Shown here one piece after another: positions 15,441 to 64,000 of a stretch of 64,000 nt of DNA. The stretch comes from an uncultured Gammaproteobacteria bacterium (lineage in GTDB: Bacteria > Patescibacteriota > Patescibacteriia > Magasanikbacterales > GWA2-37-8): contig CAYZGX010000002.1 in the NCBI GenBank assembly GCA_964478235.1, positions 20,677 to 84,676 of the forward strand, in the 5' to 3' direction. The notes beneath the pieces are model-generated. The model was not told where the DNA came from. It saw only the letters and a list, made by a program, of their open reading frames with translations, and made no database searches. Positions within the stretch are counted from its first letter, which is position 1. Every line of letters starts with the position of its first letter. The translations under genes were made by a program, and so were the position numbers.

Positions 15441-15512
15441 GCACTCATCGTTCAATGGATAGGACATTGGCCTGCGAAGCCGAAAATTTAGGTTCGACTC
15501 CTAATGAGTGCA
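15441..15512 (+). tRNA. tRNA-Arg, anticodon GCG by manual fold
   Basis: Acceptor GCACTCA/TGAGTGC, D-arm GTTC-AATGGATA-GGAC with A20, anticodon stem TTGGC/GCCGA, loop CTGCGAA, T-arm TTAGG-TTCGACT-CCTAA, discriminator A. Confidence 0.7.
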
Positions 15513-15594
15513 CAAACTCCGAGCCTGTTGAACAGGCTCAGCTCATCGAAAAACGGCGCTAACCTGCGCTGTTTTTCGTTTCACGAGCGTCGTT

Positions 15595-17052
15595 CTAGGC
15601 GGACGTGGTCCCGTCCCGAAGAGATTTCGAACCTTCGAGCAGTCCGCGAATCACGGGAGTGAGTCGAAGTGTCGGCTTCAGGCTCGACAGGTCGACGCGC
15701 TCAACCACGGTGGCGATCACCTCTCGGCGTTCGACCGGGTCAGTCGAGTTCTTGAGGGTGGTATCGAGACGCTCGAGTACCTGCTGCAGGCGGAGGTCGC
15801 CATCGCCAGGCTCTCGCTCGCGGCCGACCGCGAGTAGCCACTCGGTCGCGCGGATCTCGTCGCGGAGTTGCCGGCGGCGCTCCTCGTACTCGGATTCCTG
15901 CAGGTTCTGGTGGACGTAGGTCAGGGCGAGCGTCTTCAGTTCGCCATCGAGCCGTCGGCGTGCCGCTCGAAGCGCTCGGGTCCGTTCAGCCGAGTCCGCC
16001 CGTGCTGCCCGTCGAGCCGCTCGAATGCGGCGTTTCAGCACCGGCAGCAGGCGTGAGGGGAGGGCGGTGGCGAGTAGTTCGGCGGCGACTTCGTCCTCGA
16101 CGTCACCAGCTCGGCGCGAGTTCCGGCAGGCCTTCTGGTGGCACCGGTAGTACCGGTGCACCCGGCCCGACTTCTTCTTGTGCTCCTCGCCGACGAGGAG
16201 CGATCCGCACTGCGGACAGGCAACCAGCCGCGACAGCGTGAACGAGAGGGTCTGTCGAGCGCGGGCAGAATTGCCCCGTTTCGCTCGAAACACTGCCTGG
16301 CACCGTTCGAACAGATCTCGCGACACGAGCGGCGCGTGGGTTCCGGCGTACGTCCCGCCGCCGGCGACCATCGTGCCAACGTAGAACGGATTCTGGAGGA
16401 TCCGGCACAGCTCGGTGTTCCGGACGCGGTTGTTGTGGGTCGAGACGAGCCCTGCTCTCCAGAGTTCCTCGGCGAGCTGCTCGGACGTGAGGGTGCCGGT
16501 CGCCCAGCGGTCGAAGGCCAGCTGGATGAACCGCGCTCGTGCTGGATCAGGTACCGCTCGACGTCGCTCCATCCGGTACCCGATCGGAGGCAGTGAAGCC
16601 CAGACGCCGCGTCGTAGACGCTCGTCGAGGCCTTTTTTGACTTCAGCCGCCAGGTTGGCGGAGTAGAATTCTGCTTGTGCAGCCATAATGTGTTCAATGA
16701 ACTCGCCCATGGGGGAGGCCTCGATGGTCTCGACGACCGAGAGAACGCGGACGCCGACGGACCGGAGGCGTCCCTTGAGGACGAGATAGTTAAAGGTGTC
16801 GCGTGAAAGCCGGTCGAGCTTGTGGACGAGGAGTCCGTCGATCGACCGGTCACCGGTGGCCGCCTGGACGGCGGCCATGAGCCCCGGCCGATCCCTGAGG
16901 GAGCGCGCCGAGGCGATGTCTTGGAACCGACCTGCGACCGTGAGGTCGTGGTCCTTGGCGTAGTGTTCCATGAGGTGGAACTGCGCCGACAGCGAGAGCT
17001 CGCGGTCCGCCTGACGGGCGGTCGAGACGCGAGCGTAGAGGAGGATAGCCAT
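15595..17052 (-). CDS. Large serine recombinase (resolvase/integrase family)
   Basis: N-terminal catalytic domain (LYARVSTARQ with the catalytic Ser), a recombinase domain, a Cys4 zinc ribbon (CPQC...CHQKAC) and a C-terminal coiled coil. The gene is about 64% GC. Confidence 0.85.
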   Translation of the reverse strand: MAILLYARVSTARQADRELSLSAQFHLMEHYAKDHDLTVAGRFQDIASARSLRDRPGLMAAVQAATGDRSIDGLLVHKLDRLSRDTFNYLVLKGRLRSVGVRVLSVVETIEASPMGEFIEHIMAAQAEFYSANLAAEVKKGLDERLRRGVWASLPPIGYRMERRRAVPDPARARFIQLAFDRWATGTLTSEQLAEELWRAGLVSTHNNRVRNTELCRILQNPFYVGTMVAGGGTYAGTHAPLVSRDLFERCQAVFRAKRGNSARARQTLSFTLSRLVACPQCGSLLVGEEHKKKSGRVHRYYRCHQKACRNSRRAGDVEDEVAAELLATALPSRLLPVLKRRIRAARRAARADSAERTRALRAARRRLDGELKTLALTYVHQNLQESEYEERRRQLRDEIRATEWLLAVGREREPGDGDLRLQQVLERLDTTLKNSTDPVERREVIATVVERVDLSSLKPTLRLTPVIRGLLEGSKSLRDGTTSA

Positions 17053-17108
17053 ACGCGTTGGTTAGTGAGTGACGTAGGTATCCTGACAGAGTAGGGTAGC
17101 AGGTGACG

Positions 17109-17146
17109 AGAGTCCCGTCGCCGGTGCAAACCGGCACGTTTGTGCC
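17109..17146. repeat. Direct repeat DR1 (38 bp) upstream of the cargo gene, in the divergent promoter region
   Basis: gagtcccgtcgccggtgcaaaccggcacgtttgtgcc; 33 of 37 positions are identical to DR2. Confidence 0.7.
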
Positions 17147-17210
17147 TCTTTGCGCCATTGTCGGCTTCGGGGTGTCATGGTACGCTACGAGAATCCAGAA
17201 GGGGACCTAT

Positions 17211-18713
17211 ATGCCAAAAAAACAGAAAAAATTACTCATCTACTTCTCAGACTATTTCGACGTGGATCCGAAGACGATCCTCGAGTTTGGCGCGTTCAAC
17301 GTCTCCCTCATCAATGACCTCCCTCTATTTATCGATCCGTTTCTCCTGTTTAGCAGCGAGTCGGAGGAATACCGGACCCTGCACGCTGACATCATTCGCT
17401 ACGTCTCCTTTCTGCGAGACAAGGCAGCAACCGGGACGCTGCCGCCGGGCAACCTGAAGGCATGGTTCATGTTTCCCGAGGTCAAGCAGACGTGGCTTGG
17501 CTTCTCTCGGGTCGGCAACTCGGGCTCGGGGCTCGGAATGAACTTCGCCCAGGCTCTCTGCCGGAATCTTCACGCACTCTTTCAGGACTTCGGCGCAGAG
17601 AGTGTCACGAAGAGTAGCCACCTCGAAAAGCTCTGTCTGATCGACGATGGTGTTGGCCGCGACAATATCAGCGACTTCACAACTAACCTGATCAAGAAGT
17701 TCCTGCTCACCTACACGCAGGAGTTCGCGCAGACAAAGCTCAAGCCACACCAAAGGAAGGCGTTTCGAGTCCCCAAGGTCGAGTTCGACTATGACACGGA
17801 GACCTGGAGCCCCCGCACGTTTGTGCTCCCGTGCGTCGAAAACGACTTCGTCGTCCTGACGCCGCGTGACCTCCTCACGAAGGATGAAACTTGGATCAAC
17901 CGGACGGACCTCTACGAACAGTTCGACGACATCGTGCAGGCGGTGCCGGACGATCAGCTTCGCGCGCAGATCAACAACTATCTTGTGTCGAAGTTGCCAA
18001 AGCGAGGGCGAAAGGACAAGGAGCCGACCCAAAAGGAACGCCGTCTCGCTGTCGCGCTCGTCCTTCAGAAATATCCCACGCTGCTCGATTACTACCTTCG
18101 CCACAAAGAGGACAGCGGCGATGAGGCCGAGGCAATCTCTGAGCGTCGAGTCGACGAATCCGAGACTGTTTTCATCAAGGGAGTGCTGAGATTCGTGGAG
18201 CAATTGTCTCAGGAAACGCAGTTCTATGAGACGAGCGATAGCTCGCATGCTGAGGCGAGGAAGCGCGTCTTGTTTCTGAAGGACGTCATCGAGAACATGG
18301 ATGGCTACCGCCTCTTCTACGGGGCCAACAGGAAGCCAGTGCGTCGAGAGGCCGATGTCCATCTCCTGTTTCGACTCACCTGGTACGCGACTTTGCAGGA
18401 TGTAAATCGAGAGGTGAACAATGGGCGTGGGCCAGTCGACTTCAAGGTCTCGCGCGGCGCTCGAAACGCCAGTCTCGTTGAGTTCAAACTAGCGTCGAAC
18501 AGTAAGCTCGAGTCCAACCTGGCGAATCAGGTCGAGATCTACAAGCGCGCTAGTGGAGCCGAGCATGCGCTTAAAGTCATCGTGTACTTCACGCGATCTG
18601 AGCTCGCCAGGGTGAATCGGATTTTGAAGAAGCTCGAACTGCGCGAAGATCCAAACGTGATTCTGATTGATGCGCGTGGCGACAACAAACCGTCCGCATC
18701 CAAGGTTCGCTAA
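17211..18713 (+). CDS. Hypothetical 500-aa cargo protein with a C-terminal RecB-like PD-(D/E)xK nuclease motif set
   Basis: The start is at MPKKQKK (17211). The C-terminus carries GPVDFKV (D), LVEFKL (ExK) and QVEIY (QxxxY). The N-terminal 350 aa has no recognisable family. About 62% GC. Confidence 0.65.
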   Translation: MPKKQKKLLIYFSDYFDVDPKTILEFGAFNVSLINDLPLFIDPFLLFSSESEEYRTLHADIIRYVSFLRDKAATGTLPPGNLKAWFMFPEVKQTWLGFSRVGNSGSGLGMNFAQALCRNLHALFQDFGAESVTKSSHLEKLCLIDDGVGRDNISDFTTNLIKKFLLTYTQEFAQTKLKPHQRKAFRVPKVEFDYDTETWSPRTFVLPCVENDFVVLTPRDLLTKDETWINRTDLYEQFDDIVQAVPDDQLRAQINNYLVSKLPKRGRKDKEPTQKERRLAVALVLQKYPTLLDYYLRHKEDSGDEAEAISERRVDESETVFIKGVLRFVEQLSQETQFYETSDSSHAEARKRVLFLKDVIENMDGYRLFYGANRKPVRREADVHLLFRLTWYATLQDVNREVNNGRGPVDFKVSRGARNASLVEFKLASNSKLESNLANQVEIYKRASGAEHALKVIVYFTRSELARVNRILKKLELREDPNVILIDARGDNKPSASKVR

Positions 18714-18766
18714 TTCTGATGGATGAGTCGTGCCGCCTCGTCCGAACCACTTCTTAGCGAACGATA

Positions 18767-18804
18767 AGAGTCTCTTCGCCGGTGCAAAACGGCACGTTCG
18801 TGCC
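18767..18804. repeat. Direct repeat DR2 (38 bp) downstream of the cargo gene
   Basis: gagtctcttcgccggtgcaaaacggcacgttcgtgcc. Confidence 0.7.
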
Positions 18805-18867
18805 GGTGCCAACGTCGATTTCCGCTGAGGTTTGCGAAAGTGCAGTTCTAAGATAGTCCTCTCTTGT

Positions 18868-18912
18868 GCACGAAATAAAATACCCCCATTTATGGGGGTA
18901 TTTTATTTCGTG
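18868..18912. repeat. Perfect 20-bp-stem palindrome
   Basis: cacgaaataaaataccccca-ttta-tgggggtattttatttcgtg. Confidence 0.8.
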
Positions 18913-19056
18913 TTCTCTTTAAGAGGAGTCGAACGGGGAAGGGAGAAACCGGAAGGTTTCTCATGCGGAGGAAAGGTATCGGAAAACCCGAAGGTTTTTC
19001 CGAAGAGGTCCCGACTTGGTCGGGACCGAGTTCGACTCCGGTGTAAACAGTAGCAG

Positions 19057-19150
19057 ATAAAACATAGGGCCGATATGCTTTTTCTCCTGATGCCCCGGCA
19101 TATGTCAAAAAAGCATATCGGCCCTATGTTTTTGTTTTTCTCACCCCCTT
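19057..19150 (+). terminator. Very long perfect hairpin plus U-run immediately upstream of recG
   Basis: aaaacatagggccgatatgcttttt ... aaaaagcatatcggccctatgtttt, a 22-24-bp stem with a nested palindromic loop, followed by tttttgttttt. Confidence 0.6.
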
Positions 19151-59982: not shown

Positions 59983-60350
59983 GGGCTTCTCTCCTCTTGG
60001 CAAACCGGACGTCTGTCCGTGCCAGATTGCGCGAAATGCGCAGTTTGTATTGCTTGTTTGCTCCCTGCTCTGACTAGTGATGTAACTAAAATCAGAACGG
60101 CTAATTATACAATACAATCACCTATTTGTCAATACTGCCATACCGAGTGGGACACCTCAGTATTTTTTGATATGTAGGGCAGTAGACAAAATATAAGGCA
60201 GTTTATTAAGGATAAAATGGGTATGAGGATAAAATAAAAATACCCCAGATAAACTGGAGTATTTTTATTGGTAGACCCAATGATTGAGAATTGGAACTCT
60301 TTGGTACAGGAAATAGGTAGGTGGAAGGTGGTTTTACAAGCTATATAAAC

Positions 60351-61166
60351 CTAATTGTCCAAACACTTTATGTATTCAGAATTATAGTTGCTATCGTAGT
60401 TAGCTGGATGTTCTGGTTTACGACTTAACTCATAATAAAACTGTGCAGTTTGCGTGTCACCTGCTTCTTGGGCTTTTTCAAAGGCTAGCAGATAGTCTCT
60501 CCTAGCTACACCGTCTGCATAATTCTTTGCTTGAGTTTTACACTTTTCTATTTTTATCGCTGGGTCAATGGTCTTGCGTACTTGGGTTACAGGCTTTACT
60601 TGTGTACTTGTTGTTGGTTGTAAATTTAGTGAGTCTAATAACTGTTTAATTTCTGAATATTGAGCCTCGCTTCCTGTAACATCGAAAATTGCTTTTTTCA
60701 TGTCTGAAATCTGTTTTTCTTTAATCGGGTCACCTGCAATATAAGCCTCAACGAATGCCTTCGCCTCATTCTCTCTTTGAGAAATTTCGGCAGTAGCAAT
60801 CACATAATAAATTACAGCGTCTTCACCAGCACAATTTTTCTGCCCAGATATCAACCAAGAATTAAAAGATACTGTTACCTGTGTTTTTTTCTGGGCTAAT
60901 TCTTCAAGTTTTGAATATACCTTTGGGTCAACAACACAATACTCATCTTCTTGAGAAGATTGTGGGTCGGTTTTAACGTAAGCCCTAAATGTCTTGAAAT
61001 ACAACCCTCTTCTTTCAACCGCAGTAACATAACCAGTATGTTCACCCACCGTAGTTTCATGGTGAATGCCGCTAATTAATGCGTATAACGCACCTATGAA
61101 TAGAACAACTATAACCAAAGTACCATTAATGAATTTCATATGATTGTTATTCTTTTTTTCTACCAA
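60351..61166 (-). CDS. Hypothetical membrane-anchored protein in an AT-rich block
   Basis: N-terminal TM helix. About 37% GC. Confidence 0.45.
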   Translation of the reverse strand: MVEKKNNNHMKFINGTLVIVVLFIGALYALISGIHHETTVGEHTGYVTAVERRGLYFKTFRAYVKTDPQSSQEDEYCVVDPKVYSKLEELAQKKTQVTVSFNSWLISGQKNCAGEDAVIYYVIATAEISQRENEAKAFVEAYIAGDPIKEKQISDMKKAIFDVTGSEAQYSEIKQLLDSLNLQPTTSTQVKPVTQVRKTIDPAIKIEKCKTQAKNYADGVARRDYLLAFEKAQEAGDTQTAQFYYELSRKPEHPANYDSNYNSEYIKCLDN

Positions 61167-61797
61167 AAATAATGTATAAGAAGCCTTTAAAATATAATAC
61201 TAGGCACAAAGTAATCCAACAGAACCAGATAAGAATTGAGAACAATGCGACATGAAGAAAAAAAGCATTGCTTCTTTCATACTTAACTATGTTTTCATAG
61301 GCACATTTGTCACGTTTATCTTCATGTATTAAGCAAACTCGGTTTTTTTCATGAACTAAATTAAGGATGCTTTCTTTTATCGTTGTTTTCATTTTTTCAG
61401 ATTCCTTCTTGTAATCAGAAGACACAAGTGGTAAAGCGGTATCAAGTGAATTTTCTAAATTTCTATTACAATAACTCTGTTCTTTGAGTTTGTATTCGTA
61501 TAACCAAGTATACTCATCTTCCAGTACGTTAAGACAGCCGAACTCGCCATTCAAAGCTAAAAAATCTGGTACGACATTGCCTGTTTTGTAAGACTTTCTA
61601 GTAAAATCCTCAATGGAATATATTATTTTTGTGTTTGATGGTTTTAGTTCGATACCGTGATACAACCCAATAGGTGTAACTATTATTAGGAAAGTAGTCG
61701 TGACAACAAAGACTACTTTTAATAATCTATGCCACCATCTTGAAGTTAGATTCAAATCTGGGCGGAAAAAGGACTTTATTTTATTACTCATATTCAT
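61147..61797 (-). CDS. Hypothetical two-TM protein in an AT-rich block
   Basis: TM helices near the N- and C-termini. Overlaps the downstream gene by 20 bp. Confidence 0.45.
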   Translation of the reverse strand: MNMSNKIKSFFRPDLNLTSRWWHRLLKVVFVVTTTFLIIVTPIGLYHGIELKPSNTKIIYSIEDFTRKSYKTGNVVPDFLALNGEFGCLNVLEDEYTWLYEYKLKEQSYCNRNLENSLDTALPLVSSDYKKESEKMKTTIKESILNLVHEKNRVCLIHEDKRDKCAYENIVKYERSNAFFLHVALFSILIWFCWITLCLVLYFKGFLYIIFGRKKE

Positions 61798-61859
61798 AAA
61801 TAATGGGTATTTCTACCCATAGTTAAAGCTAACTAGATTGTATCTCTAAGATTGCTTTT

Positions 61860-62468
61860 TTACAAGTTTTCGCTAAGTAAAGGCAATAATTTTCTCTGTT
61901 TTTCCATCTCCTGTTCAAGGGTATAATGTGCAGAATAGTAAACATTATTAGTTAACCGAAGCAAAATGGGCGCTTTTACCTCTACCATAAATCTGCGATT
62001 CTCCTCAGTTAAGCCGCCCGACTGCTTAAGGTTATCAGTTAAGTCAGCTAATTTGATACGCCACGCATCTTCGTTTTTGGCTTCCGTGAGTCTCGCAATC
62101 ATGAGTAGCCATCGTTCAGTGTGGTCTGTAACGTCCATAGGGTGAGTGCAAAGCCTGATAAGCTCAATGGTACGCTCTGTAAAACCCATATTCTTTAGTT
62201 CTTCGAATGATATGCCACCATCTTCAACAATGTCATGTAGCAAGGCTGCGGTAAACAAATCATAATCAGGGTCATCCCAGTGATGACAAGTGCTTACCAA
62301 ATCTCGAACACGAAAAGAATGCGTGTAATTTTGTTCGTCTGGAAGACCTTTGCGAGTTCCTTTAATATGTTTTTTTACGAGCGTTTCAGCCTTTTTAGTA
62401 AGTTCATCGCATTTTGCATAGTAATCTGATAAAGAATGTGTTGACTCAGTATTTTTTATATTTTTCAT
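61860..62468 (-). CDS. Standalone HD-domain phosphohydrolase (SpoT-hydrolase-like)
   Basis: H...HD...D pattern: YTHSFRV, LLHDIVEDGG, KLADLTDN. Confidence 0.65.
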   Translation of the reverse strand: MKNIKNTESTHSLSDYYAKCDELTKKAETLVKKHIKGTRKGLPDEQNYTHSFRVRDLVSTCHHWDDPDYDLFTAALLHDIVEDGGISFEELKNMGFTERTIELIRLCTHPMDVTDHTERWLLMIARLTEAKNEDAWRIKLADLTDNLKQSGGLTEENRRFMVEVKAPILLRLTNNVYYSAHYTLEQEMEKQRKLLPLLSENL

Positions 62469-62764
62469 ATGTTTATTGTTAGGTGAATTAAATTAGTGCT
62501 TGATGTTTTCTGCTTTAAAAGCGAACGACCTTTAAAAACAAAAAAGCGGCTAAGAGATTAAATCCAGTCTATGACTGAATGAAATCTCCCAACCGCTTAG
62601 GTTAGTCATATATTACATTGGTTTCCAGCAGATTTCCCTGGTTACCTATCTCAACTAAGTTGAGAAGTACTACATGGCCTGATTAGTGACAGGCTGACAG
62701 TTTAAATTGTGAAGAGTACATGTATATTTTACCACGATTTCAAGGTTTTGTCAACGAAGCATAA

Positions 62765-64000
62765 CTAGCCGCCGAGAACTTTTAAAGTCCGAATAACATA
62801 GCTTTTTAATTCACCTTCGCTAATTGACACTCCATCTGCCGCAGGGTGGTGATACTTTTTTGAGTAATCGTTAATACTACTCAGTTCAGCTTCAAGACCA
62901 TGTAGCGATTTAGGTAAATCTGCTTGGTTTACGGCTGCCATTTTCGACAGCAGGTCTCCCAGCCATTCAGCAGGCAAAAATAATTTTGGTAACTTAAAAC
63001 GAAGATAACCTTCAAGAACTGGCCTGATACATCTTGCGACGCCAATCAAGCTTGAATACTCACCTGTGTCAGCAAATTTATTGAGAGTTTCAATGTCTCG
63101 AAGATATGTGTTTAGGGCATGATGAGCTACGTCCCACTCCACAATAGTACTGCTGTTTGCAACTCGTTTAACTTCTAAGCATTTAAGGTCGAGAGCTTTG
63201 GCTTCGTTCCAAACAGAAATTAAAAATTGTAAATCATGAGACATTACGATTGTTTGTTTTGCTTTTGCCGCCATAAGCATTATTTCTTGCTGAGTGGAGG
63301 TCTTTCGGTGAATGTCGAGACTAGTAATCGGGTCGTCAAAAATAACTACTTTATCGCATATGTTTGCGTCCTGGTCTAGGCGTGCCAAGAAGAAGGCAAA
63401 AGCCAAGGTGCTCTTATCACCATCACTCAATATGGACTTAAATGAGGGTTCTCCAATAGCGCCATCAAGGTTGATTGGAGCACCATTAATTTCAATGCAG
63501 TAACTTGAGCTTGGTGTGCCACCGCTATATCCTTTTCTAGTCTGTGCAATTCTGAATGATACCCCAAACTTTTCCAGGTAGGCATTTATACTTGTTTCAA
63601 ACCTTTCCAGCAGCGTCTTATCAAAGGAATCGAGGTCATCTTTTGCAACCCTTTTTTTCTCTTCAAGTTCTGTTTTTTCATTTCTTAATTTTTTCCAGGC
63701 GTTACATAATTCGGTAGCTAAAGGTGTATGTCGATTCTTTAGGCAGTTGAGTGTGCTAAGTTTATTTTGCTCAGTAAGTAAGTTTCCAGAACCCGCAGAT
63801 GTTTTTTTGGTTGCTAAAATAGCGTTAATGTCGGCAACTTCTTTGTTGTATGCAGTCACTAATTTTTCGATTTCACCAAACTCCAGTAGTGCTGCCGCCA
63901 AATTTGGCTCAACGTTGATAATTTCAAGCGGAGCATCAGTTTTGCGTTTAAGATGTTCGGTGATTTCAGTTTGAAGCTTGTCCCAGGCCTCTTTCAAATC
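62765..64000 (-). CDS. AAA_13-type ABC ATPase (PrrC/RloC-like), N-terminus outside the window
   Basis: Coiled-coil segment, ABC signature-like LSDGDKSTLAFAFFLA, Walker B VVIFDDPITSLD and H-loop MSHD. The C-terminal ~170-aa domain has R-x3-E plus His. Walker A is absent from the window, so the gene continues past 64000. Confidence 0.55.
   Translation of the reverse strand, partial: DLKEAWDKLQTEITEHLKRKTDAPLEIINVEPNLAAALLEFGEIEKLVTAYNKEVADINAILATKKTSAGSGNLLTEQNKLSTLNCLKNRHTPLATELCNAWKKLRNEKTELEEKKRVAKDDLDSFDKTLLERFETSINAYLEKFGVSFRIAQTRKGYSGGTPSSSYCIEINGAPINLDGAIGEPSFKSILSDGDKSTLAFAFFLARLDQDANICDKVVIFDDPITSLDIHRKTSTQQEIMLMAAKAKQTIVMSHDLQFLISVWNEAKALDLKCLEVKRVANSSTIVEWDVAHHALNTYLRDIETLNKFADTGEYSSLIGVARCIRPVLEGYLRFKLPKLFLPAEWLGDLLSKMAAVNQADLPKSLHGLEAELSSINDYSKKYHHPAADGVSISEGELKSYVIRTLKVLGG

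What the first reader, a model, noticed from the sequence alone, without database searches (positions are those of the whole stretch)
17211..18713. Orphan 500-aa cargo protein with a C-terminal RecB-like PD-(D/E)xK nuclease signature
The last ~90 residues contain, in the correct order and spacing, a hydrophobic-Asp (GPVDFKV), a hydrophobic-hydrophobic-Glu-hydrophobic-Lys (LVEFKL) and a QxxxY (QVEIY). Together these are the motif II, III and Q-Y hallmarks of RecB/Cas4/DUF4263-type nucleases. The ~350-aa N-terminal region matches nothing I recognise. Single-gene systems with an unknown N-terminal sensor fused to a C-terminal PD-(D/E)xK nuclease are a known architecture in antiphage defence, Shedu being one example. 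So this may be a new member or a new family.
Basis: inference. Interest (0 to 1): 0.8.

Follow-up and report, generated by a model that had tools for sequence, protein, structure and literature searches.

The report
Widespread nuclease-tipped candidate defence protein
The gene is real and probably encodes a DNA-cutting enzyme, but it is not an orphan: it belongs to a very large, uncharacterised bacterial family (Pfam DUF8370+DUF8371) whose relatives replace the nuclease with other cell-killing domains, which suggests an untested anti-phage defence protein carried here on a tiny mobile island.

Summary

"Orphan" is wrong. There are over 6,800 homologue clusters, at least 588 species genomes and two Pfam DUFs.

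The N-terminal 340 residues (DUF8370) model at pLDDT 93. They have no PDB match except a helix-hairpin-helix-like part.

The same N-domain is also found with TIR, SIR2, CHAT, caspase or PNP-nucleosidase domains. In 15 of 16 such long variants the nuclease motif is degenerate, against 41 of 65 intact in short forms. There is no obligate partner gene. Neighbours are often restriction-modification genes, integrases or transposons.

In the window the gene and a large serine recombinase form a 3,354-bp island (GC 60% against 46%) beside tRNA-Arg in a Magasanikbacteria-like CPR genome.

Best reading: a stand-alone sensor-nuclease defence protein, never tested experimentally. Interest is moderate.

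The parts
17211..18713 (+). Complete gene (500 codons plus stop) for a DUF8370+DUF8371 protein, the subject of the finding.
   Evidence: The translation is open. It is 100% identical to P0001, and 56-67% identical to the other 119 listed full-length homologues. The N-terminus aligns with those homologues, which supports ATG 17211 rather than the upstream GTG 17103.
17211..18230 (+). N-terminal domain, residues 1-340 (Pfam DUF8370). It is the proposed sensor or DNA-binding module. The last ~40 residues form a long linker helix.
17433..17738 (+). Approximate helix-hairpin-helix-like part of the N-domain (residues ~75-176). It contains the conserved hairpins GSGLG (105-109) and GVGRD (147-151). 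The boundaries are inferred, not measured.
18231..18710 (+). C-terminal domain, residues 341-500 (Pfam DUF8371). It is the PD-(D/E)xK-type nuclease domain.
18429..18542 (+). Catalytic signature G407-Y444. D410 is at 18438-18440, E424 at 18480-18482, K426 at 18486-18488, Q440 at 18528-18530 and Y444 at 18540-18542. Upstream, E380 is at 18348-18350 and E401 at 18411-18413.
   Evidence: Codon positions were checked. These residues are invariant in 83 sequences. They are intact in 41 of 65 short family representatives but in only 1 of 16 long variants that carry another effector, and that one only partly.
15595..17052 (-). Large serine recombinase (485 aa), divergently transcribed from the cargo gene. 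It is the presumed integrase of the island.
   Evidence: Pfam finds Resolvase 8.8e-28, Recombinase 7.1e-10 and Zn_ribbon_recom 6.4e-7. The N-terminus reads AILLYARVSTARQ, which includes the catalytic-serine motif.
15441..15513 (+). tRNA-Arg (GCG), immediately left of the island. It is the probable integration target.
   Evidence: Found by ARAGORN and by Rfam tRNA at 62 bits.
15514..18867 (.). GC-rich mini-island of about 3,354 bp (boundaries approximate) that carries only the recombinase and the cargo gene.
   Evidence: GC is 0.597 against 0.453 and 0.475 in the flanks. GC3 is 0.72-0.77 against 0.44-0.48 in recG and der. GTGCAC is present at both junctions. An independent 3,412-bp contig (L089) is identical in the end regions aligned and stops inside the tRNA and inside the flanking hairpin.
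17109..17146 (+). Upstream copy of a 38-nt direct repeat, in the divergent promoter region between the recombinase and the cargo gene.
   Evidence: Found by the repeat finder as family D1. No match is expected by chance. It has internal dyad symmetry.
18767..18804 (+). Downstream copy of the 38-nt direct repeat (89% identical), 54 nt after the stop codon and near the right end of the island.
   Evidence: The repeat was not found next to the homologous gene in 84 other loci.
18868..18913 (+). Strong hairpin followed by a T-run (intrinsic-terminator-like) in host DNA, directly after the island.
   Evidence: The stem has 20 pairs followed by TCTCTTT. The inverted repeat I4 is 100% complementary.

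Best explanation
The gene encodes a stand-alone, horizontally mobile defence (conflict) protein of the uncharacterised DUF8370+DUF8371 family.

Proposed mechanism:
1. The N-terminal DUF8370 domain is the constant sensing module. It has a fold with no solved relative, a tandem helix-hairpin-helix-like DNA-binding part and an invariant Asp/Glu/His cluster. It recognises a nucleic-acid cue from an invader, most plausibly a DNA structure or foreign DNA.
2. The C-terminal DUF8371 domain is a metal-dependent PD-(D/E)xK endonuclease (E380/E401, D410, E424-x-K426, Q440-xxx-Y444). It then cuts DNA, which either destroys the invader or kills the infected cell.

In this window the gene is the only cargo of a 3.35-kb serine-recombinase island inserted beside tRNA-Arg in a Magasanikbacteria-like CPR bacterium.

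What is shown: the gene is intact; the family is large; the catalytic residues are conserved; the fold resembles nucleases; effectors are exchanged among relatives; and the gene sits in mobile and R-M contexts.

What is inferred: nuclease activity, DNA sensing by the N-domain, and protection against phages.
For: (1) Nuclease domain.
- The catalytic residues are invariant across 83 species.
- The strand/helix placement is canonical.
- Two of the three most frequent weak Pfam hits are PD-(D/E)xK families, PDDEXK_9 at 4e-5 and DpnII-MboI at 3e-4. The N-domain control gives no recurring hit.

(2) Effector logic.
- A profile of the N-domain finds 2,241 50%-identity clusters.
- Long members carry SIR2_2, CHAT, Peptidase_C14+EAD7 or TIR/SEFIR, CHAT, or an MTA/SAH-nucleosidase-like domain.
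- The nuclease signature is intact in 41 of 65 proteins of 560 aa or less, but in only 1 of 16 longer ones, and there only partly (Fisher p = 3.8e-5).
- A short DUF8370-only member is followed 52 nt downstream by a PNP protein that matches the PADLOC CBASS 'PN-superfamily' effector at 1.3e-16.

(3) Context.
- No partner gene is conserved in 84 loci.
- Recurring neighbours are HsdS (7-8 loci, at position -1), N6-methyltransferase and ResIII/HsdR helicases (13 loci each within +/-5 genes), integrases, resolvases, PLD and McrBC.
- Individual loci sit beside SoFic, PemK, Shedu and type III/IIG R-M genes.
- On plasmids the gene lies near a Tn3-family transposase and resolvase, or ends a methyltransferase-helicase-GIY-YIG operon.

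(4) A distant relative of the N-domain, PDC-M36A, was already proposed as a defence candidate by 'guilt-by-embedding' in R-M, BREX and DISARM systems.

(5) Horizontal transfer. Identity is 53-64% across more than 10 phyla, and the island has atypical GC.

Against: - No experiment exists for any member. The held papers do not mention DUF8370/8371, the Pfam accessions, PDC-M36 or member accession numbers.
- Foldseek against the PDB gives no match with E <= 1e-3.
- No curated nuclease profile reaches significance on the window protein itself.
- Weak Pfam hits among ~60%-identical sequences are not independent of each other. An obviously unrelated family, MdoG, also recurs in 37 of 83 members.
- The family is unusually conserved for an immune gene: about 60% identity between phyla, and the polar residues of the N-domain are near-invariant. 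That would also fit an enzyme with a fixed substrate.
- Most loci (roughly three quarters) show no recognisable defence gene directly adjacent. I did not compute a background rate.
- No relative was found in 50,697 deposited phage genomes.
Confidence: 0.6

Rival explanations
1. It is an accessory or alternative nuclease of restriction-modification systems. It could be a type IV-like (modification-dependent) restriction enzyme or an extra cleavage subunit. The N-domain would read DNA (for example modified DNA) and the PD-(D/E)xK domain would cut it, so it would act as direct restriction rather than as a triggered sensor-effector.
Against: Most loci, including the window, have no R-M gene nearby. 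Relatives that swap the nuclease for TIR, SIR2, caspase/CHAT or PNP nucleosidase fit a triggered cell-suicide logic, not DNA restriction. Nothing is known about modification dependence.
Confidence: 0.15
2. It serves the mobile element rather than the host. It could be an addiction or toxin module, an exclusion factor against competing elements, or a DNA-processing nuclease needed for the movement of the recombinase island or transposon.
For: It is the sole cargo of a 3.35-kb serine-recombinase island. It is flanked by a 38-nt direct repeat that also sits in the recombinase promoter region. It lies near a Tn3-family transposase and resolvase on pSmeSM11a. Integrases or resolvases are direct neighbours in about 7 of 82 loci.
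Against: Linkage to a serine recombinase is not conserved. Relatives of the window's recombinase lie directly beside the gene only in L007, L004/5 (a fragment) and L067; one more (L057) lies six genes away. The 38-nt repeat is absent from the other 84 loci. Many copies are chromosomal with no mobility gene nearby. No antitoxin-like partner is conserved.
Confidence: 0.1
3. The C-terminal domain is not the active part. The N-terminal DUF8370 domain is itself the enzyme, using its invariant Asp/Glu/His/Lys cluster. The PD-(D/E)xK-like domain is then a DNA-binding or oligomerisation scaffold, or the protein is a housekeeping structure-specific repair nuclease of the XPF/Mus81 kind.
Against: The seven catalytic-type residues of the C-domain are invariant wherever no other effector is present, and they decay when one is added. 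That is the pattern expected of an active effector. The patchy, horizontally transferred distribution and the island location argue against a housekeeping role. The domain order and motifs differ from XPF/Mus81.
Confidence: 0.1

Closest known systems
Pfam DUF8370 (PF28123) + DUF8371 (PF28130) family, uncharacterised
   Same: The window protein is identical to P0001, which carries both precomputed Pfam hits. All 120 listed homologues have the same two-domain architecture, and all but one are 485-540 aa long.
   Different: Nothing differs; this is the family it belongs to. The family has no assigned function and no literature in the library searched.
Shedu (SduA, DUF4263 / SduA_C)
   Different: No match to the DUF4263/SduA_C profile in Pfam or to any PADLOC model other than PDC-M36A/PDC-M28B. 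The N-domain is conserved and large here, rather than variable. The sequence signature includes QxxxY.
PADLOC phage defence candidate PDC-M36 (Payne et al., bioRxiv 10.1101/2024.01.29.577857)
   Same: PDC-M36A shares the first ~230 residues of the DUF8370 domain (E 3e-21 on the window protein; 1e-13 to 1e-22 on ten other variants). It was proposed as a defence candidate because it is embedded in R-M, BREX or DISARM loci.
   Different: Only profile positions ~8-280 of 457 match, so the C-terminal half differs. PDC-M36 is a three-gene cassette (FAM_01399>>FAM_00303>>FAM_00303), whereas the window gene stands alone. PDC-M36 is itself unvalidated.
Modular single-protein immune sensors with exchangeable effectors (Avs/STAND NTPases; CBASS and type III CRISPR effectors such as Cap4, Can2, TIR-SAVED, SAVED-CHAT)
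   Different: No STAND/P-loop NTPase, SAVED, CARF or STING domain was detected. No cyclase or other signal-generating gene is conserved nearby. The constant module is a fold without a solved relative.
XPF/Mus81/Hef structure-specific endonucleases (ERCC4 nuclease + (HhH)2)
   Same: Both combine a PD-(D/E)xK-fold nuclease with a tandem HhH DNA-binding module. Hef, ERCC1, FANCM and FAAP24 nuclease-like domains appear in the full-model list, and Hef/ERCC1 HhH domains appear in the N-domain list.
BamHI-like type II restriction endonucleases (BstYI, BamHI, BglII, OkrAI)
   Different: Sequence identity is only 6-12%. No cognate methyltransferase is present in the window. The QxxxY helix motif and the 340-residue N-domain are not features of those enzymes.

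Membership tests
Pfam DUF8370 + DUF8371 family | Matches to both Pfam profiles PF28123 and PF28130 | tested here: met
   The database protein identical to the window product (P0001, 100% identity and coverage) carries both precomputed hits. The names are given, and the domain order is deduced. The local Pfam copy predates these models, so I could not rerun the match.
PD-(D/E)xK nuclease superfamily | Acidic residue at the start of one core strand and (D/E)xK on the next strand, conserved across the family | tested here: met
   D410 precedes strand 411-413. E424 and K426 lie in strand 421-427. All three are invariant in 83 sequences.
PD-(D/E)xK nuclease superfamily | Restriction-endonuclease-like alpha-beta-beta-beta-alpha-beta core fold | tested here: inconclusive
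PD-(D/E)xK nuclease superfamily | Significant sequence-profile match to a family of the clan | tested here: inconclusive
   The window protein has no hit. Among 83 members, PDDEXK_9 is hit by 25 (best 4e-5) and DpnII-MboI by 24 (best 3e-4). These hits are not independent, and the unrelated MdoG also recurs.
RecB/Cas4-type nucleases (PDDEXK_1, Cas_Cas4) | QxxxY motif on the helix after the ExK strand | tested here: met
   Q440 and Y444 lie in helix 433-448 and are invariant.
RecB/Cas4-type nucleases (PDDEXK_1, Cas_Cas4) | Profile match to PDDEXK_1 or Cas_Cas4, and for Cas4 the four-cysteine Fe-S cluster | tested here: not met
Shedu (SduA) | DUF4263 / SduA_C nuclease domain | tested here: not met
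   No PF14082 hit. The PADLOC scan returned only PDC-M36A and PDC-M28B. A true SduA_C gene in locus L090 is a separate protein.
PADLOC candidate PDC-M36 | Full-length match to PDC-M36A plus the multi-gene cassette A>>B>>B | tested here: not met
   The match covers only profile positions 23-246 of 457. No co-oriented downstream genes exist in the window: the next feature is the island end, then recG.
Anti-phage defence system (functional class) | Experimentally shown protection against phage | not testable with these tools
   Only indirect evidence is available: effector exchange, neighbourhoods, and carriage on mobile elements.
XPF/Mus81/Hef nucleases | N-terminal ERCC4 nuclease domain followed by a C-terminal (HhH)2 domain | tested here: not met
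   The order is reversed: the HhH-like part lies at ~75-176 and the nuclease at 341-500. No ERCC4 Pfam hit.

The most novel reading that the evidence does not exclude
DUF8370 is a previously unrecognised immune sensor module. It has no NTPase domain and a fold with no solved relative, and it probably reads DNA. It defines a large 'one sensor, many effectors' defence family. The effectors are a PD-(D/E)xK nuclease, TIR, SIR2, caspase/CHAT and PNP nucleosidase, attached in cis or encoded in trans. The canonical nuclease form is spread between phyla, and even into small CPR genomes, by minimal vehicles such as the 3.35-kb serine-recombinase island seen here.
Probability: 0.45. Interest if true: 0.7.

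Novelty: new variant of a known kind. Interest (0 to 1): 0.55.

Why it matters
If the family is a defence system, it would add a widespread system to the known set. It occurs in at least 588 species genomes from more than 10 phyla. It has thousands of sequence clusters, and 2,241 clusters at 50% identity for the sensor domain alone.

Its sensing domain has no solved structural relative and no NTPase. That would give a new answer to how a single protein detects infection.

The exchange of an intact nuclease for TIR, SIR2, protease or nucleosidase domains gives ready-made comparative material for testing how the sensor couples to an effector.

The window also shows a very small integrative element: a recombinase plus one cargo gene. 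It delivers such a gene to a Patescibacteria (CPR) genome, a group generally thought to be poor in defence systems (my own knowledge, not tested here).

If the family is not a defence system, its high conservation still points to an unknown DNA-processing enzyme of broad distribution.

Tried and rejected
- Local Pfam, NCBIfam and PDB-sequence searches of the protein gave nothing useful. A family profile against PDB sequences also gave nothing.
- The afdb50 Foldseek library was not available.
- Foldseek against the PDB gave no significant hit.
- An exact-sequence contig look-up of P0001 found nothing on record.
- tblastn against 50,697 phage genomes found no match. Megablast of the island against plasmids found no match.
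- Literature searches for PF28130/PF28123, DUF8370/8371, PDC-M36 and member accession numbers found nothing.
- I first recalled 'PDC-M' as meaning candidates from Millman et al. That was wrong. The paper shows that PDCs come from Payne et al.'s guilt-by-embedding study, and M appears to mean multi-gene.
- Conserved partner gene: rejected. Clustering of the +/-5 neighbours in 84 loci gave no family present in more than 13 loci.
- Conserved recombinase-cargo module: rejected.
- The 38-nt flanking repeat as a family feature: rejected. It is absent from the other loci.
- Two metagenome scans for an empty (island-free) tRNA-Arg site or for the host flank found nothing, so excision or polymorphism could not be shown.
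- The 3,412-bp contig L089 is not a circular form. It is the same integrated sequence.
- The two small ORFs after the short variant P0217 are not paralogues and are not PDC-M36 components.
- Rfam found no RNA family in the island apart from the tRNA.
- The long antisense ORF 17325-18362 (-) is treated as a by-product of the high GC content and was not pursued.
Full report
**1. The observation**

The ORF at 17211-18713 (+) is open and encodes 500 residues. A longer reading from GTG 17103 exists. Homologues align from the ATG at 17211, which is preceded by AAGGGG.

- GPVDFKV at residues 407-413
- LVEFKL at residues 422-427
- QVEIY at residues 440-444

They are not chance matches. I aligned the last 160 residues from the window and from 82 other species-representative genomes. 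In that alignment E380, E401, G407, D410, E424, K426, Q440 and Y444 are invariant.

The 345-codon antisense ORF (17325-18362) is what one expects in 55-60% GC DNA. It was not pursued.

**2. Not an orphan**

- A search of the 5.8-billion-protein collection returned 6,821 clusters with E <= 1e-3 among the candidates scored.
- The 119 listed homologues other than the identical P0001 are 56-67% identical, and all but one are 485-540 aa. All carry the precomputed Pfam families PF28130 and PF28123.
- These are DUF8371 and DUF8370. The local Pfam copy is older and lacks them, which explains its silence.
- At least 588 species genomes encode a relative. They include Myxococcota, Gamma- and Betaproteobacteria, Chloroflexota, Acidobacteriota, Bacillota, Cyanobacteria, Planctomycetota, Bacteroidota, Nitrospirota and Patescibacteria.
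- Twenty plasmids carry a match, always annotated 'hypothetical protein'.
- No deposited phage genome has it, although two PHROGs of unknown function match.
- No paper in the held library mentions the DUFs, the Pfam accessions or member accession numbers.

**3. The C-terminal domain**

An AlphaFold2 model of the whole protein was built from 32 sequences (pLDDT 78, pTM 0.79). After residue 340 it gives helix 380-391, strands 411-413 and 421-427, helix 433-448, strand 452-459, helix 462-474 and strand 483-487.
- D410 sits at the start of a strand.
- E424 and K426 sit on the next strand.
- Q440 and Y444 sit on the following helix.

When the 83 C-domains are scanned against Pfam at permissive thresholds, two of the three most frequent families are PD-(D/E)xK families. 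PDDEXK_9 is hit by 25 members (best 4e-5) and DpnII-MboI by 24 (best 3e-4). The same experiment on the N-domains gives no recurring family.

Caveats:
- Foldseek finds nothing at E <= 1e-3.
- The segment 392-410, which should form the first core strand, is modelled with low confidence.
- The weak Pfam hits are shared by related sequences and so are not independent. The unrelated MdoG family also recurs.
- Profiles of RecB/PDDEXK_1 and Cas4 do not match, and the PADLOC scan returned only PDC-M36A and PDC-M28B, with no Shedu model. The domain has no conserved cysteines.

I therefore accept 'PD-(D/E)xK nuclease domain' at about 0.8. I reject membership of the RecB/Cas4 and Shedu families.

**4. 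The N-terminal domain**

Residues 1-340, modelled with a more diverse 64-sequence alignment, give a very confident model (pLDDT 93.2, pTM 0.91).

This fits the two conserved Gly-rich hairpins, GSGLG (105-109) and GVGRD (147-151), each flanked by helices. The assignment is only suggestive, and no HhH profile matches.

The domain carries a dense set of invariant polar residues: D36, D42, H58, E90, N103, H137, E139, K140, D151 and D155.

**5. Relatives with other effectors (the most informative result)**

A profile of the N-domain searched against 1.84 billion cluster representatives finds 2,241 clusters at E <= 1e-3 and 328 at E <= 1e-30. Domains found in the longer hits:

| Domain | Found in |
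|---|---|
| SIR2_2 | P0121 |
| CHAT | P0126, P0157 |
| CHAT (weak PDB-sequence match, E 0.0048) | P0140 |
| Caspase, with or without EAD7 | P0136, P0147 |
| TIR/SEFIR | P0124, P0128, P0152, P0164, P0175 |
| bSEFIR/TIR (PADLOC models) | P0143 |
| MTA/SAH-nucleosidase-like domain | P0209 |

Most of these long proteins still contain the DUF8371 domain between the N-domain and the new effector, but its catalytic residues are deleted or replaced.

I aligned all 81 listed representatives of 440 aa or more to the family model. The D/ExK signature is intact in 41 of 65 proteins of 560 aa or less, but in only 1 of 16 longer ones, and there only partly (Fisher p = 3.8e-5). The polar residues of the N-domain are kept in nearly all of them.

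Short DUF8370-only variants have tightly linked downstream genes:
- In L090 the downstream gene is a 513-aa PNP_UDP_1 protein that matches the PADLOC CBASS 'PN-superfamily' effector. A Shedu gene lies 1 kb away.
- In L096 there are two small overlapping ORFs, next to a Bsp6I R-M system.

A constant module joined to nuclease, TIR, SIR2, protease or nucleosidase domains is the known signature of immune sensor-effector proteins. I base this on my own knowledge of Avs, CBASS, Thoeris and type III CRISPR effectors. The mutual exclusivity argues that the intact nuclease is the effector in the canonical form.

**6. Genomic context elsewhere**

In 84 loci no neighbour is conserved. The recurring neighbours are:
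- an N6-adenine methyltransferase (13 loci)
- ResIII/HsdR-type helicases (13 loci)
- HsdS (11 loci, 7 of them immediately upstream)
- tyrosine integrases (6 loci)
- SNF2 helicases, type III Mod and UvrD-type helicases

Pfam and PADLOC tallies of the 150 immediate neighbours agree: Methylase_S 7, ResIII 4, Phage_integrase 4, Resolvase 3, PLDc_2 3, and also HSDR_N, MmeI and McrBC.

Individual loci put the gene beside:
- PemK, SoFic and a type III R-M system
- a type IIG/DUF499 cluster on an integrative element
- a Tn3-family transposase and resolvase on pSmeSM11a
- the end of a methyltransferase-helicase-GIY-YIG operon

I did not compute a background rate, so this is qualitative support only.

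**7. PADLOC**

The only PADLOC hit is PDC-M36A, over its first ~230 profile positions. Ten other variants show the same partial match.

The 'phage defence candidates' come from Payne et al. (bioRxiv 10.1101/2024.01.29.577857). That study inferred defence function from embedding in BREX, DISARM and type I R-M loci. PDC-M36 is an unvalidated three-gene cassette with 90 instances.

The window protein is therefore a relative of that candidate, not a member of it.

**8. The window itself**

- Der GTPase homologues place the host among Patescibacteria, closest to Candidatus Magasanikbacteria among named relatives (76-77% identity).
- The flanking genes are housekeeping genes: dprA, pth, der, a LytR-family gene, recG and radA.
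- Between tRNA-Arg (15441-15513) and a strong terminator hairpin (18868-18913) lies 3,354 bp with GC 0.597 and GC3 0.72-0.77. The surrounding values are 0.45-0.475 and 0.44-0.48.
- This stretch contains only a 485-aa large serine recombinase with an intact catalytic-serine motif (15595-17052, minus strand) and the cargo gene.
- An independent 3,412-bp contig from run SRR12487046 is identical in the end regions aligned. It ends inside the tRNA and inside the hairpin.
- Searches for an empty site failed, so mobility is inferred from composition and gene content only.
- A 38-nt direct repeat with internal dyad symmetry brackets the cargo gene (17109-17146 and 18767-18804). It is specific to this island. 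Its role is unknown; it may be an operator or a recombinase-binding site.

**9. Verdict**

Two points were wrong: the protein is not an orphan, and it does not belong to the RecB/Cas4/DUF4263 families.

The best-supported explanation (confidence about 0.6) is a stand-alone, horizontally mobile sensor-nuclease defence protein of the uncharacterised DUF8370+DUF8371 family.

The rivals are an R-M accessory or type IV-like nuclease (0.15), a function that serves the mobile element (0.1), and an enzymatically active N-domain with a non-catalytic C-domain, or a repair role (0.1).

On novelty, the architecture is of a known kind, but the sensing domain has no solved relative and the family is not among the described defence systems I could check. 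I rate it a new variant of a known kind, with moderate interest (0.55).

Noticed in passing
window 18925-19040 (+): A stretch of about 115 nt of host DNA lies between the island's right end and recG. It folds into three hairpins closed by a 10-bp stem (GGAGUCGAAC/GUUCGACUCC). The MFE is -60.7 against -43.1 kcal/mol for shuffles (z = -4.9). It has no Rfam match and is not called by ARAGORN. Its 3' side, GTTCGACTCC, equals the T-arm of the nearby tRNA-Arg. It could be an unknown structured RNA or a tRNA-like remnant.
   Followed up: partly
window 17109-17146 and 18767-18804: A 38-nt direct repeat (89% identical) brackets the cargo gene. Each copy contains an imperfect 9-nt inverted repeat with a 6-nt spacer. 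One copy lies in the divergent promoter region of the recombinase and the other near the island end. The repeat is not found at 84 homologous loci. It may be an operator or a recombinase-binding site.
   Followed up: partly
window 15514-18867: This is a minimal integrative island of 3,354 bp, with one large serine recombinase and one cargo gene, next to tRNA-Arg in a Magasanikbacteria-like CPR genome. GTGCAC is present at both junctions (15508-15513 and 18866-18871). No empty site was found in the metagenome collection.
   Followed up: partly
window 19059-19132: A 36-nt inverted repeat (86% complementary, 2-nt loop) overlaps the annotated start of recG at 19075. Rfam gives only meaningless miRNA-like hits there.
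   Followed up: no
window 60000-64000: GC falls to 0.35-0.40, against about 0.47 for the window as a whole. This may be another foreign or specialised region. Its ORFs were not examined.
   Followed up: no
window 18687-18710 (residues 493-500) and family alignments A1/A7: The extreme C-terminal tail DNKPSAS is strongly conserved: K493 and S497 are invariant in all 83 sequences, and S495 in the 32-sequence alignment A1 (90% or more in the 83). This is unusual for a protein terminus. It may be a regulatory or active-site element.
   Followed up: no
L096 4001-6363 and L090 6001-8956: Short DUF8370-only relatives form apparent operons with downstream genes. In L096 these are two overlapping ORFs of about 180 aa with no known domain, next to a Peptidase_M78/HTH pair and a Bsp6I R-M system. 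In L090 it is a 513-aa PNP-type nucleosidase next to a Shedu gene. These look like multi-gene versions of the same system.
   Followed up: partly
L088 (Paenarthrobacter plasmid NZ_CP094490.1) 8590-12834: Directly downstream of the family gene, on the opposite strand, lie an Hsp70-family gene and two hypothetical genes. This may be another defence-type cluster. It was not examined.
   Followed up: no
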